NCBI GenBank assembly: GCA_013239625.1
Contig: MU053513.1
Location: 1,414,927 to 1,478,926, forward strand
Source: Lama guanicoe
Lineage: Eukaryota
Length of the DNA: 64,000 nt
Direction of reading: 5' to 3'
This document shows positions 1 through 58,264 of the stretch, in pieces; the first letter of the stretch is position 1, and each line of letters opens with the position of its first letter. The translations under genes were made by a program, and so were the position numbers. The notes beneath the pieces were generated by a model, which was given only the letters and a program-made list of their open reading frames with translations, made no database searches and was not told the origin of the DNA.

Positions 1-290
1 AAGTAAAAAACAGTAAAAGATGGTACACTCCTGAGAATTGGGAGCGGGCCAATCCAAGAGAGGAAAAATGGCGCTGTTCCCTCATTTTTCCTGTTTTTAT
101 TTCCTGGTTTCATGATTGAATGATTGATTGATTGATTGACAACTCAGGTTCCCTGTGCTCTGGTTAATTGACAGCTCAGGTTCCTTGTGTTCTGGATGTT
201 CCTCTCCCCTTCCTCTCCCCCTGCCCAGTGCTCATTTCTATCTAAACTGCCTTAGACCCTCACTTGCTCATTCATCAAGCATATATTCAG
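1..290. mobile_element. Probable ERV LTR fragment, truncated by the window edge
   Basis: LTR-like composition with a (GATT)n run at ~113-138 and an internal ~32-bp tandem duplication (TTGACARCTCAGGTTCCYTGTGYTCTGG x2, ~136-196); family not assigned. Confidence 0.4.
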
Positions 291-3807: not shown

Positions 3808-3984
3808 TTTTTTTAAAAGAGATTTTAAGTATTTCATTTATTTATTATTTAATTACTTTATTTTGGCCAGGGGCAGGGAGAGATAATTAGGTTTGTTTAT
3901 TTATTTTTAGAGGCGGTACTGGGGATTGAACGCAGGACCTCATGCATGCTAAGCATGCGCTCTACCACTGAGCTATACCCTTCG
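3808..3984 (-). mobile_element. tRNA-derived SINE (vic-1 type)
   Basis: Reverse complement GAAGGGTATAGCTCAGTGGTAGAGCGCATGCTTAGCATGCATGAGGTCCTGCGTTCAATCCCCAGTACC with A and B boxes, followed by AT-rich tail. Confidence 0.9.
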
Positions 3985-10745: not shown

Positions 10746-11279
10746 TGTTTGTTTTCCTATTGCTGCTTTAACAAGTTACCACAAATTCAATGACTTAAAC
10801 ATCACAAATTTATTATTTTGCAGTTCTGGAAAAGTCTAAAAAAGAGTCATACAGAGCTAAAATCAAAGTATCAGCAGAGCAGTGTTCCTTCAGGAGGCTT
10901 TAGGGACAATCTGTCCCTTGCTTTCTAGCTTCCGGAGGCTACCCCCATTCTTTGGTTCATGGCTCTTTCTCGCAATAGCGACCTCTGCTTCCATCATCAC
11001 AGCTGCTCCTCCAGTTCTTTCACTCTGACCCTCCTGCCTCCCTCTTACAAGAATCCTTGTGACTACACTGGGCCCACCCAGATTATCCAAGATAATTTCC
11101 CTATCTCAAGATCTTAACTTGATTAAGATCTTAACATTTGCAAAGCGCCTCTTGTCATGTAAGGTGACACATTCGCATGTTCCCGGATTAGGATCTGAAC
11201 ATCTCTTGGAGGCCGTGATCGTATAGTGGTTAGTACTCTGCGTTGTGAACATCTCTTGGAGACCATTCTACCTACCACA
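10746..11279 (-). mobile_element. MaLR (MLT1C/D-like) LTR hosting the tRNA-half insertion
   Basis: TTTCCTATTGCTGCTTTAACAAGTTACCACAAATT...ACTACACTGGGCCCACCCAGATTATCCAAGATAAT...CCATTCTACCTACCACA. Confidence 0.85.
11212..11247 (+). pseudogene. Tailless retropseudogene of the tRNA-His(GUG) 5' half
   Basis: GCCGTGATCGTATAGTGGTTAGTACTCTGCGTTG(TG) matches nt 1-36 of vertebrate tRNA-His(GUG) as I recall it; flanked by perfect 16-bp direct repeat TGAACATCTCTTGGAG (11196-11211, 11246-11261); no 3' half, B box or poly(A). Confidence 0.93.
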
Positions 11280-12196
11280 CTCATTCACAGGAAAAAAAAT
11301 TATTTTAAAAACTGGATCAGGTACAAACTGAATCAGATCTTGATAAAAACAATAAGTAGTTAGCTCTAAACTTCCTATCAGTGACAGGAAAGTAAGAAAA
11401 TGACACAAAAATCTGAAAAACGGGGGGATAGGAAAAGGCAAATTACAATTGTATAATAATTCATAGTTTCAATTGGTTTTTCTCAAGTAAAAATTCAAAT
11501 ATAAATGTGACACCATAATTCCTAAAAGAAGGTAACAATTGGACAGTGCTACCTGCTTTTTCATTGGTTTTGCATGTCCCCTCTCCAGGTTCCCTCTCTC
11601 TATGAGCCCCTCAAACTATAGGTGGTAACTGCTGGCTGTATTGATGCCAGCCAGGCACGCAGCACAGGGATTCAACTGAACAGAGGGGTCAGAAAGGACT
11701 CAACCTAAGACATGAAAAGGAGAAGAGTCCTTTTTCATCCCCAAAGGAAAAATATAGCAAATGCTTTAAAAGAGACCACTGGATTTTATTAAAATTATAA
11801 GTACTCTAGGATTTTGCATTTATAAATTGTTGAAGATAAAAATAGAAAATATTTCAAATGCCATATTTGATCATAATGGGAACACACATTTTCTGACCAG
11901 CTCAGACAAAGGCAAGTTACAAACTCATTAGCAGATAGTGGCAGATGGTGCTAGTAAGGGCCAGTGCTAAGTAAGTCAGGACCGCAAGGGTCGGCCGTTG
12001 TCGCCAAAAGCAATGTAATTTACCCTTCCTTCCAGCCACAGGAGAAGAAAATTTATTATCAGCAGATAGCTGGTAACATTGGCAGACACTCAGTATGTTT
12101 CTTTAATTTATTAACTTTCCTCCTTGCACAAAATGAAAGAGAAACAAAAGGAAAGTTCAGAGCTCTTTTCAAAGCCTTGATTGAGAGTCCACTATT

Positions 12197-22594: not shown

Positions 22595-22735
22595 GAGGAG
22601 GGTATGGCTCACTGGCAGAGTGATGCTTAGCATGCATGGGGTCCGGGGTTCAATCCCCAGTACCTCCATTAAAATACATACATACATACACACACACACA
22701 CAAACCAAATTACACTCCTGCCCCTCAAAAAAGAA
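22595..22735 (+). mobile_element. tRNA-derived SINE (vic-1 type) with TSD, next to a MIR remnant (~22400-22560)
   Basis: GAGGAGGGTATGGCTCACTGGCAGAGTGATGCTTAGCATGCATGGGGTCCGGGGTTCAATCCCCAGTACCTCC; TSD AAGAAAACAGAG(G/C)GACT at 22576-22592 and 22736-22752. Confidence 0.9.
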
Positions 22736-40288: not shown

Positions 40289-40445
40289 GGGGAGGGTATA
40301 GCTCAGTGGTAGAGTGCATGCTTAGTATGCATGAGGTCCTGGGTTCAATCCCCAGTCCCTCCATTAAAATAAATAAGTAAATTAACCTAATTACCTCCCC
40401 CCAAAACAAAAAATACATGAATAAAATATTTTAAAAATAAATTTT
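40289..40445 (+). mobile_element. tRNA-derived SINE (vic-1 type), well preserved
   Basis: GGGGAGGGTATAGCTCAGTGGTAGAGTGCATGCTTAGTATGCATGAGGTCCTGGGTTCAATCCCCAG with intact A/B boxes; no tRNA acceptor stem, AT-rich tail. Confidence 0.92.
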
Positions 40446-57060: not shown

Positions 57061-58264
57061 CGGCCCTTGGGCAGCTGCCTTCTTCCCCTGCTCCTCTCCC
57101 TAAAATGACATGTGGATATCTGAGGAGAGGGGTGACTACTGTGTCCCTCACCCACCCTTACTGTGTTGGCTGCAGACTGTAGAGTGACCACTGTGTCCCT
57201 CACCCAGTCTACTGGCCTGGCAGTCCACCCTGCCTTGTCAGGCCTGGCTGGGAAGATGGTGCCTTGGAAGTCCTACCGGCTCTGGTCACACCAGCCATAA
57301 AACTTGGGACATAGGAGCAGCATAGGAAAACAAAACCACAGGATCTCCTTCTGACCATGGTGTTGCAGTCACACACCCAAGTTGGTACAGATGGACAGAA
57401 TAAAAGATGAGCTTTCCAGAGCCCCCAACTTGGAAATGAGCAATATCTCCCCCTCCTTGCCCTTACTATTACCCTCATTTTTGTGACACAATTTTTTCCC
57501 AAGCCATGGGAAAAATTACAAGACACAAATTATTATCTTCTCTTCCTATTCCTTTCACAATCTCCTTGGCCAAAAAAGATGTGGTGTGGGGGACGTCCTT
57601 ACATTCCTTATATCAAATCCTCCTGCTTCTTGATGTCAACATTGTTGAGCCTTAACTGTGTACAAGGTGCCTTCTCTACATACGATGGGGACCCTCTATG
57701 ATCTGAGTTTTCTGGGCTCAGCTAGTGATGTGTAAAACAGGAAATGAAGTAATTCGGCAAACCCTCCATCTCCAACACTACCTAACTAAAAGGTCAAGAG
57801 CTTGCCTTCTCTTTCTCCAGGACAGTAAATCTCACGTCTCCGTCTTAGAGGTCTGTCTGCCCTTTGCAATAAAATATCTCATAAGAGGGAAATTAAAATG
57901 TGTCCATTTAATGTTTGCAAAAATATTAAGCAAAGAACATTTGTCTTGCAGGTTGGTTTTGAGTTTTGGTTTTTAGTTTCCTTTCCTTTCAGCAACCCTA
58001 CCTTTTCCTTTTACAATTAATTCTTGAGTATATACACTATCTAAAGCAAGCAGAAGGAGAGCGTGCACGTGAGTATTCAGGGATGGAATCAGCTCCACTC
58101 CAAGTCTCCTATCTGAACCCTAGTCCTGTATCTTTCCCTGAATGGTCCGCTAGGTCCTCATACTCAGCATACCTAGAATTGAATCCGTTCCCCTTTCCCC
58201 AAAACTACCTTTCCTTCTTGACCTTCTTCTTTGATCAGCTGTTAAAAATAAAATGAGTTTAGAA

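What the first reader, a model, noticed from the sequence alone, without database searches (positions are those of the whole stretch)
11196..11261. Genomic copy of exactly the 5' half of tRNA-His(GUG), tailless, between perfect 16-bp TSDs
Seen: TGAACATCTCTTGGAG + 34-nt insert GCCGTGATCGTATAGTGGTTAGTACTCTGCGTTG + TGAACATCTCTTGGAG; removing the insert and one repeat restores a continuous MLT1 LTR. Known: the insert equals tRNA-His(GUG) nt 1-34, ending at the first anticodon base, which is where the angiogenin-generated 5' tRNA-His half ends; tailless retropseudogenes made by L1 are a described class. The next two bases (TG) belong to both the tRNA and the TSD, a microhomology expected for priming without poly(A). 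The G before the insert could be the Thg1-added G-1 or the last TSD base; this is ambiguous. Inference: a recent L1-mediated germline retroposition of either a cleaved tRNA half or an internally primed full tRNA. It could also be a false or real source locus for tRNA-half reads.
Basis: partly seen in the sequence, partly recalled or inferred. Interest (0 to 1): 0.8.

Follow-up and report, generated by a model that had tools for sequence, protein, structure and literature searches.

The report
Tailless tRNA-His retrocopy in an old LTR
A 34-36 base DNA copy of the front part of histidine tRNA was pasted, without a poly(A) tail, into an old repeat; this is a young member of a known class of LINE-1-made "tailless retropseudogenes".

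Summary
A perfect 16-nt direct repeat (11196-11211, 11246-11261) brackets a 34-nt insert. The insert is identical to nt 1-34 of the 7 identical full-length tRNA-His(GTG) genes of this genome, and the next two bases (TG) match nt 35-36. Three of 4 old paralogous LTR copies carry the repeat region once, so the host repeat was continuous before insertion.

The locus is not unique. The genome holds 21 such truncated tRNA-His copies. None has poly(A) and all stop at G36. Twenty have clear target-site duplications (TSDs), and 18 of those 20 begin with TG. Eight copies carry pre-tRNA 5' leaders matching live genes, and 4 carry an extra G at -1. The target consensus TY|TGAA is LINE-1-like.

This is the class described by Schmitz 2004 and Noll 2015: tailless retropseudogenes, processed or unprocessed, truncated in loops, with 2-18 nt target complementarity.

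Its "angiogenin half ending at G34" detail does not: the family endpoint is G36. That is the published RNase L cut site in tRNA-His. The leader-bearing copies, however, favour priming on nuclear (pre-)tRNA.

No orthologous empty site could be tested. Interest is low to moderate.

The parts
11196..11211 (+). 5' copy of the target-site duplication (16 nt). Its last base G (11211) could instead be the G-1 of mature tRNA-His.
   Evidence: G-1 ambiguity judged from family copies
11212..11245 (+). Retrocopied tRNA-His(GTG) nt 1-34: acceptor 5' strand, D arm, 5' strand of the anticodon stem, and the loop up to G34. It contains the A box but no B box.
   Evidence: 34/34 identity to 7 full-length tRNA-His genes of the same genome
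11246..11261 (+). 3' copy of the TSD. Its first two bases TG (11246-11247) also equal tRNA nt 35-36 (U35 G36) and are the priming microhomology.
10946..11287 (.). Old interspersed LTR-type repeat that received the insertion.
   Evidence: Paralogues L038-L041 align at about 70-72% identity to window 10946/11048-11216. Three of 4 continue across the insertion point to 11280-11287.
11190..11201 (-). Inferred first-strand nick site. The bottom strand reads 5'-TGTTCA/GATCC-3', and the freed ...CA-3' end can pair with U35-G36.
   Evidence: Inference from TSD boundaries. Family target consensus T(15/20) Y(16/20) | T(19/20) G(18/20) A(15/20) A(10/20).

Best explanation
The feature is a tailless, 3'-truncated tRNA-His(GUG) retropseudogene.

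Proposed steps:
1. A LINE-1-type endonuclease nicked the bottom strand of an old LTR copy at 5'-TGTTCA/GATCC-3'.
2. The freed DNA end ...CA-3' paired with U35-G36 in the anticodon loop of a tRNA-His molecule. These are the same two bases that a His codon CAY pairs with.
3. Reverse transcription ran from G34 to the 5' end of the RNA (G1, or G-1).
4. Second-strand nicking 13-16 nt away gave the direct repeat.

No poly(A) was involved. The RNA 3' of G36 was either absent or simply not copied. I lean towards priming inside an intact nuclear tRNA or pre-tRNA, with U33 (U-turn) and the modified G37 limiting the pairable stretch to 35-36.

The copy lacks the B box and the whole 3' half, so it is an inert pseudogene. 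Its only practical effect is as a perfect 36-nt multi-mapping site for tRNA-His 5'-fragment reads.

What is shown and what is inferred:
- Shown: tRNA identity, TSD, absence of a tail, a previously continuous host repeat, the family-wide G36 endpoint, TG microhomology, and an RNA intermediate (leaders with fixed 5' ends; extra G-1).
- Inferred: LINE-1 as the enzyme, the exact nick, and intact rather than cut template RNA.
For: (1) Anatomy of the locus.

(2) A pattern search of the 2.05-Gb genome with the 34-mer at <=3 mismatches found 29 places; the reversed-pattern control found 0. Eight are full-length tRNA-His genes. Twenty-one are truncated copies that all read ...GTTGTG and then diverge.

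(3) An independent BLAST with a full 72-nt gene gave 27 hits: 8 full length, one degenerate hit covering 1-70, and 18 truncated, all ending at 36 (one at 37). There were no 3' fragments and no other breakpoints.

(4) TSDs of 9-61 nt were found in 20 of 21 copies. In 16 the TSD starts at tRNA position 35. Eighteen of 20 start with TG (binomial P about 1e-19 against a TG frequency of 0.066). The target consensus is TY|TGAA, which on the bottom strand reads TTCA/RA, against LINE-1's TTTT/AA.

(5) An RNA intermediate is indicated in two ways. Eight of 21 copies carry 16-21 nt of 5' leader matching the upstream flank of particular live genes, and copies from the same gene type start at the same base (L012/L023; L028/L032). 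Four of 13 leaderless copies have an extra G at -1 that neither the TSD nor any of the 8 genes supplies; the genes have C or T at -1.

(6) Decay of the older copies is CpG-biased: 13 of 28 mismatches.

(7) The published class matches point for point. Noll et al. [quoted passage not shown] They give the consensus TT/WAAAAWW and favour internal priming.

Against: - No orthologous empty site was seen; only paralogues stand in for it.
- The enzyme is inferred from TSD length and target motif only. The window's own site (TC|TGAACA) is a weak LINE-1 motif.
- Internal priming by a CA-3' end could equally use U33-G34, yet 0 of 21 copies end at G34. A real RNA 3' end at G36 would explain that invariance more simply.
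- G36|G37 is exactly the in-cell RNase L site of tRNA-His (bioRxiv 10.1101/087106, passages).
- tRNA-Asn, whose loop is A-rich, has only 1 truncated copy among 15 hits, and Arg-TCG has 0 of 20. Loop accessibility plus complementarity therefore does not predict everything.
- The pattern and BLAST searches cannot see copies shorter than about 30 nt, so D-loop breakpoints would be missed.
Confidence: 0.8

Rival explanations
1. Same retroposition, but the template was a pre-cut tRNA-His fragment ending at G36. This is the product of a UN^N endonuclease such as RNase L (-1..36 with a 2',3'-cyclic phosphate), and the nicked DNA end annealed to its terminal UG.
For: - The endpoint is G36 in 21 of 21 copies and never G34 or G37.
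- Donovan et al. (bioRxiv 10.1101/087106, passages) map the RNase L cut of cellular tRNA-His at site 36 and describe the fragment as nucleotides -1 to 36. [quoted passage not shown]
- Four to 7 of 13 leaderless copies have G at -1.
- A 2025 preprint (10.1101/2025.02.02.635956, section 30 and passages) proposes cleaved halves (1-37) as the tRNA parts of LINE-1 chimeras.
Against: - Eight of 21 copies carry 5' leaders, so their templates were unprocessed nuclear pre-tRNAs.
- The same paper reports that unmodified tRNA-His transcripts are cut at all three UN^N sites of the loop, and that site-36 specificity needs cellular processing.
- Noll 2015 found no matching truncated RNAs for 5S and U2 (section 16).
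- Nothing here shows RNase L activity in germ cells.
Confidence: 0.15
2. One reading: the template was the angiogenin-type 5' half ending at G34 (or U33), and the TG that follows belongs to the target only.
For: A G1-G34 5'-tRNA-His half is a described species: about 80% of the extracellular-vesicle 5'-His halves, with U33 the major end inside macrophages (PMC7745994, passages). In the window copy alone, the 34 + 16 reading cannot be excluded.
Against: - In L022, L026, L028 and L030 the TSD starts after position 36, yet U35-G36 are present. In L035 (TSD unclear) they are present too.
- Eighteen of 20 targets starting with TG would need an unexplained target preference.
- Angiogenin cuts 3' of pyrimidines, which G36 is not (PMC11840711, passages).
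- For Lys-CTT the truncated copies end at 37-39, whereas the angiogenin cut is C34/U35.
- Leaders in 8 of 21 copies are not expected for a cytoplasmic or secreted nuclease acting on mature tRNA.
Confidence: 0.03
3. Not retroposition: a DNA-level event, such as a short tandem duplication with filler DNA copied from a tRNA-His gene during break repair, or an assembly artefact.
For: The insert is very short and there is no tail. A second direct repeat of 17 nt at 52-nt spacing in the window (57138) looks like a plain tandem duplication.
Against: - There are 21 independent loci with the same endpoint, different TSDs and a shared target motif.
- Leaders start at fixed bases, and some copies have an untemplated G-1. 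Both point to RNA.
- The stretch is held at 0.97-0.98 of its sampled words by 8 runs under four organism labels. An empty allele could reach only about 0.94-0.95 by my estimate.
Confidence: 0.02

Closest known systems
Tailless retropseudogenes (Schmitz et al. 2004, Genome Res 14:1911; Noll et al. 2015, PMC5322556)
   Same: - 5'-complete, 3'-truncated tRNA copy.
- No oligo(A).
- TSD within the 8-35 nt range.
- Truncation in a loop.
- Target complementary to the last 2 nt of the copied RNA.
- Both processed and unprocessed (leader-bearing) templates occur in the family.
- LINE-1-like target.
   Different: Nothing essential differs. The His family has a G at the second TSD position in place of the A-rich WAAAA core, and a single invariant endpoint (G36). 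The published description speaks of preferred positions, and 'one or more defined positions'. The 2004 paper itself was not held, so I could not check whether tRNA-His/G36 is already tabulated there or in the supplements.
tRNA-half/LINE-1 chimeric insertions (bioRxiv 10.1101/2025.02.02.635956)
   Same: The tRNA part is half-length (1-37 highlighted), lies within one TSD pair, and has a LINE-1 endonuclease motif. The authors suggest cleaved halves as the source.
   Different: Here no LINE-1 sequence is attached. The copy stands alone between its TSDs.
RNase L-generated tRNA-His half, -1..36 (Donovan et al., bioRxiv 10.1101/087106)
   Same: Same 3' end (G36, a UN^N site) and an optional G-1.
   Different: That is an RNA species made in the dsRNA response of cultured human cells. 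Nothing links it to reverse transcription, and 8 of 21 genomic copies have leaders that such a fragment should lack.
Angiogenin 5'-tRNA-HisGUG halves (PMC7745994)
   Same: The 5' part of the same tRNA. A G1-G34 form exists.
   Different: Those halves end at U33 or G34, not G36.
tRNA-derived SINEs
   Same: tRNA-related sequence spread by LINE machinery. Two ARAGORN 'tRNAs' of this window are such SINE heads.
   Different: SINEs keep the A and B boxes, have a body and a LINE-related or A-rich tail, and amplify from master copies. The His copies arise independently from the tRNA genes themselves, as the leaders of several different genes show.

Membership tests
Tailless retropseudogene (criteria as written in Noll 2015, Methods passage) | 5' end (almost) complete relative to the source RNA (<=5 nt overhang) | tested here: met
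   The insert starts at G1 directly after the TSD.
Tailless retropseudogene | 3' truncated by at least 10 nt, length >=30 nt | tested here: met
   34-36 of 72 nt are present.
Tailless retropseudogene | No oligo(A) tail between element and 3' TSD | tested here: met
   The TSD follows the tRNA part with no intervening base.
Tailless retropseudogene | Flanking TSD of 8-35 nt with >=70% identity | tested here: met
   16/16. None in 50 shuffled windows.
Tailless retropseudogene | Truncation in a loop or single-stranded region | tested here: met
   The end lies at anticodon positions 34-36. Loop positions were assigned from the gene sequence and the ARAGORN anticodon position.
Tailless retropseudogene | Target site complementary to the terminal nucleotides of the copied RNA | tested here: met
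   TG is shared by the tRNA and the TSD here, and in 16 of 20 family copies. Eighteen of 20 TSDs start with TG.
Tailless retropseudogene | LINE-1-type target consensus (TT/WAAAAWW) and dependence on LINE-1 | tested here: inconclusive
   The family consensus TY|TGAA resembles it. The window's own site, TC|TGAACA, is a weak match. The enzyme cannot be tested in silico.
Functional tRNA-His gene | Full cloverleaf with A and B boxes, called by tRNA finders | tested here: not met
   ARAGORN finds 0 genes at the locus. Rfam has no hit there at gathering score. The T arm and B box are absent from the sequence.
Retrocopy of an angiogenin-type 5'-tRNA-His half | 3' end at U33 or G34 (PMC7745994) | tested here: not met
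   The family endpoint is G36 in 21 of 21 copies. The window copy alone is ambiguous between 34 and 36.
Retrocopy of an RNase L-type tRNA-His half | 3' end at G36 | tested here: met
   cut site from bioRxiv 10.1101/087106
Retrocopy of an RNase L-type tRNA-His half | Derived from mature, processed cytoplasmic tRNA (G-1, no leader) | tested here: inconclusive
   The window copy has no leader, and its G at -1 is ambiguous. In the family, 8 of 21 copies have leaders, which does not fit, and 4 have an unambiguous G-1, which does.

The most novel reading that the evidence does not exclude
The invariant G36 endpoint is not a priming preference but a real RNA end. On this reading, tRNA-His (and its precursors) are cut at the UN^N site U35-G36^G37 by RNase L or a related nuclease in germ cells or early embryos, and LINE-1 copies the resulting fragments. 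Tailless tRNA-His retrocopies would then be a genomic fossil record of innate-immune RNA cleavage coinciding with LINE-1 activity in the germline.
Probability: 0.12. Interest if true: 0.65.

Novelty: new member of a known kind. Interest (0 to 1): 0.3.

Why it matters
As a single locus it matters little. It is an inert 36-nt pseudogene, useful as a young presence/absence marker and as a caution for mapping tRNA-His 5'-fragment reads. This genome has 6 perfect 36-nt copies outside the genes.

The family behind it is a clean small data set for an open point in the field: whether tailless retrocopies come from cut RNAs or from priming inside intact RNAs. Noll 2015 argues for internal priming, and the 2025 LINE-1 chimera preprint argues for cleaved halves. 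Four features of the family bear on that question:
- one endpoint (G36);
- a 2-nt complementarity in 18 of 20 targets;
- both leader-bearing and G-1-bearing templates;
- coincidence of the endpoint with the RNase L site rather than the angiogenin sites.

Tried and rejected
- Orthologous or empty-allele test: the look-up of sequencing runs listed 20 holders under organism labels A-F. The shares of words are used only as a hedged inference.
- Schmitz et al. 2004 (PMC524414) is not held. I know it only through citing passages.
- The search of earlier findings gave nothing by relatives, by words or by nearby place.
- I first read L010 as a chimera, with a tRNA part joined to another RNA, which would have argued for template switching to an RNA end at G36. 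A longer alignment showed a 61-nt TSD starting at position 35 instead. The idea is withdrawn.
- The window's own 'tRNA' calls (Thr-AGT, Ala-AGC) failed as controls. They are SINE heads with 1771 and 1247 candidates, and only the 40 best, all full-length, were scored.
No tRNA-Pro or Gly-GCC gene was obtained. The sharpest control was therefore not run: does Pro end at the RNase L site 35?
- A link between tailless-copy number and known abundance of 5' halves is only partial. His, Glu-CTC, Val-CAC and Lys-CTT fit. Gly-TCC, Gln-CTG and Cys-GCA also have many copies, while Asn has 1 of 15 and Arg-TCG 0 of 20.
- The MLT1 name and the camelid origin were not tested.

Full report
OBSERVATION

The window reads TGAACATCTCTTGGAG (11196-11211), then GCCGTGATCGTATAGTGGTTAGTACTCTGCGTTG (11212-11245), then TGAACATCTCTTGGAG again (11246-11261), and continues ACCATTCTACC.... 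The repeat finder reports the pair. Read with one mismatch it runs 19 nt.

In the whole window only one other perfect direct repeat of >=16 nt at 16-100 nt spacing lies in complex sequence (57138). Fifty block-shuffled windows gave none. ARAGORN and Rfam see no tRNA gene at the locus.

IDENTITY OF THE INSERT

The window is part of a 2.05-Gb assembly that can be searched. The 34-mer, allowing up to 3 mismatches, occurs at 29 places; the reversed-pattern control gave 0.

Eight of these places are full-length 72-nt genes that ARAGORN calls tRNA-His (gtg). Seven of them are identical and one has a single change. They sit in clusters with Asn, Lys, Gly, Glu and Val genes. Their sequence equals the human tRNA-His printed in the Methods of bioRxiv 10.1101/087106 (passage).

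The insert is identical to nt 1-34 of these genes. The following TG equals U35-G36.

HOST SEQUENCE AND THE EMPTY SITE

Four old paralogues of the flanking repeat (70-72% identity) align to window 10763-11216. I aligned them separately to the upstream flank and to the downstream flank.

In 3 of the 4 (L038, L039, L040), one single copy of the 16-mer region aligns to both flanks and continues into window 11262-11287. Scores were 31-35 against a maximum of 20-23 in 200 shuffles. L041 gave no significant downstream match. The repeat was therefore continuous before the insertion.

I did not build the joined sequence.

An orthologous empty site could not be examined. Eight runs under four organism labels hold 0.97-0.98 of the sampled words of window 10800-11700. 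By my estimate an empty allele could reach at most about 0.94-0.95, so these runs probably carry the insert. This is an inference, not a laid result.

THE LOCUS IS ONE OF A FAMILY

The other 21 places are truncated copies.

- Endpoint. All 21 read ...GTTGTG and then diverge from the gene. None has an A-run. A BLAST with the whole gene gave 27 hits: 8 full length, one degenerate hit covering 1-70, and 18 truncated, ending at 36 (one at 37). There were no 3' fragments and no other breakpoints.
- TSDs. Twenty of 21 have clear TSDs of 9-61 nt; L035 is unclear and was left out of the target table. In 16 copies the TSD begins at tRNA position 35. In L022 and L030 it begins at 37. In L026 and L028 a few extra bases (TG repeats) lie between the tRNA part and the TSD.
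- U35-G36. Wherever the TSD does not cover them, U35 and G36 are still there, and nothing continues into G37. The copied RNA segment therefore ends at G36, not G34.
- Microhomology. Eighteen of 20 TSDs start with TG, against a TG frequency of 0.066 in the window (binomial P about 9e-20).
- Target site. The consensus is T (15/20), Y (16/20) | T (19/20), G (18/20), A (15/20), A (10/20). On the nicked strand this reads TTCA/RA, against the LINE-1 consensus TTTT/AA.

EVIDENCE FOR AN RNA INTERMEDIATE

Eight copies (L010, L012, L023, L028, L031, L032, L033, L035) carry 16-21 nt between the TSD and G1. This sequence matches the upstream flank of particular live genes (L015, L016, L017 and L018-L020 types). 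Copies from one gene type begin at the same base: L012 and L023 at -19, L028 and L032 at -18. That is what a Pol III start site would give.

The 13 leaderless copies divide as follows:
- 4 have an extra G at -1 that neither the TSD nor any gene supplies; all 8 genes have C or T at -1;
- 3, including the window copy, have a G at -1 that could be the last TSD base;
- 2 have an extra A;
- 1 has an extra T;
- 3 have nothing.

Passages of PMC7745994 state that about 60% of cellular tRNA-His carries G-1, and that the rest carries U-1 or lacks the -1 nucleotide. Both unprocessed and 5'-matured tRNA-His have therefore served as templates.

AGE

Across the 21 copies there are 28 mismatches in 36 nt. 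Ten fall on the three internal CpGs and 3 on the C-1/G1 CpG of leader-bearing copies. The window copy is one of 6 with no mismatch. Its three CpGs are intact and its TSD is 16/16, while the host repeat is about 29% diverged from its paralogues. The insertion is young in relative terms. I give no absolute date.

COMPARISON WITH WHAT IS KNOWN

Noll et al. 2015 (PMC5322556; abstract, passages, and sections 15 and 16 read) summarise the class discovered by Schmitz et al. 2004. [quoted passage not shown]
- they lack oligo(A) tails;
- they are truncated in loops;
- their insertion sites are complementary to the terminal 2-18 nt of the RNA;
- the target consensus is TT/WAAAAWW;
- they are made by LINE-1 target-primed reverse transcription.

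Noll et al. argue for internal priming, because no matching truncated 5S or U2 RNAs were found. Every defining feature that I could test is met by the window copy (see the membership table). Only the LINE-1 motif is weak at this particular site.

A 2025 preprint (10.1101/2025.02.02.635956; section 30 and passages) finds half-length tRNA parts (1-37) in LINE-1 chimeras and favours pre-cleaved halves. The template question is therefore open in the literature.

WHICH TEMPLATE?

Angiogenin cuts 3' of pyrimidines (PMC11840711, passages). The described 5'-tRNA-His halves end at U33 or G34 (PMC7745994). G36 fits neither.

For Lys-CTT, the truncated copies in this genome end at 37-39, whereas the angiogenin cut is C34/U35.

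G36|G37 is exactly the RNase L site of cellular tRNA-His: UN^N, 'site 36', fragment -1..36. The same paper says unmodified transcripts are cut at all three UN^N sites of the loop (bioRxiv 10.1101/087106, passages). This coincidence is the most interesting lead.

However, the leaders in 8 of 21 copies point to nuclear precursors. On that ground I rank priming inside intact nuclear (pre-)tRNA first. The absence of G34 endpoints I tentatively explain in two ways. U33 is tied up in the U-turn, and G37 (m1G in mature tRNA-His) cannot pair. Both statements are textbook knowledge recalled by me, not tested here.

OTHER tRNAs OF THIS GENOME

These figures use BLAST ends, and where candidates exceeded 40 only the top-scored hits were examined. 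Counts are 5'-anchored truncated copies among scored hits.

| tRNA | Truncated / scored | Where they end |
|---|---|---|
| Glu-CTC | 19 / 40 | 36-37, two at 39 |
| Val-CAC | 15 / 33 | ten at 38, three at 36 |
| Lys-CTT | 15 / 40 | 37-39 |
| Gly-TCC | 33 / 40 | 27 at 37-39 |
| Gln-CTG | 16 / 39 | scattered |
| Cys-GCA | 13 / 40 | not summarised |
| Phe-GAA | 8 / 33 | not summarised |
| Asn-GTT | 1 / 15 | not summarised |
| Arg-TCG | 0 / 20 | none |

[quoted passage not shown] This agrees with the published class.

FUNCTION

None is expected. The copy keeps the A-box region but lacks the B box and everything 3' of the anticodon. The copy is a perfect 36-nt match for tRNA-His 5'-fragment reads, so it is a false mapping target rather than a likely source.

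VERDICT

The element is a young member of the known class of tailless tRNA retropseudogenes. The 'angiogenin half ending at G34' detail is not supported; the family endpoint is G36.

Noticed in passing
window 57138-57154 and 57190-57206: The only other complex perfect direct repeat in the window: 17 nt at 52-nt spacing, enclosing 35 nt. The bases just before each copy are also similar, so it looks like a ~52-nt tandem duplication rather than an insertion.
   Followed up: partly
window 3910-3982 (-) and 40291-40363 (+); also 22598-22668 (+): ARAGORN calls tRNA-Ala(agc), tRNA-Thr(agt) and tRNA-Ala(agc) here. The first two have 1247 and 1771 first-look candidates genome-wide, with dozens of full-length 93-100% copies. 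They are therefore heads of tRNA-derived SINE families, not ordinary tRNA genes. The third was not tested.
   Followed up: partly
loci L022, L025, L031, L037 (tRNA position 32); L029, L033, L034 (position 13): In the truncated tRNA-His copies, position 32 is changed in 4 of 21 (twice T>A, twice T>C) and position 13 in 3 of 21 (T>C). This is more than at other non-CpG positions. Possible causes are variant source genes or misreading at a modified base. Unexplained.
   Followed up: no
locus L010 (G000:C1724, around 4317040): This leader-bearing tRNA-His copy has an unusually long TSD: 61 nt with one mismatch.
   Followed up: partly
window 11212-11214 versus 11262-11264: After the 16-nt TSD, the tRNA starts GCC and the downstream flank continues ACC. 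The direct repeat therefore reads 19 nt with one mismatch. This could be 5'-junction microhomology or chance.
   Followed up: no
G000:C5171:4929727-4929796: A degenerate, nearly full-length tRNA-His-like copy (86% identity over nt 1-70) lies inside a cluster with Glu, Val and Asn genes. It is probably a decaying gene copy rather than a retrocopy.
   Followed up: no
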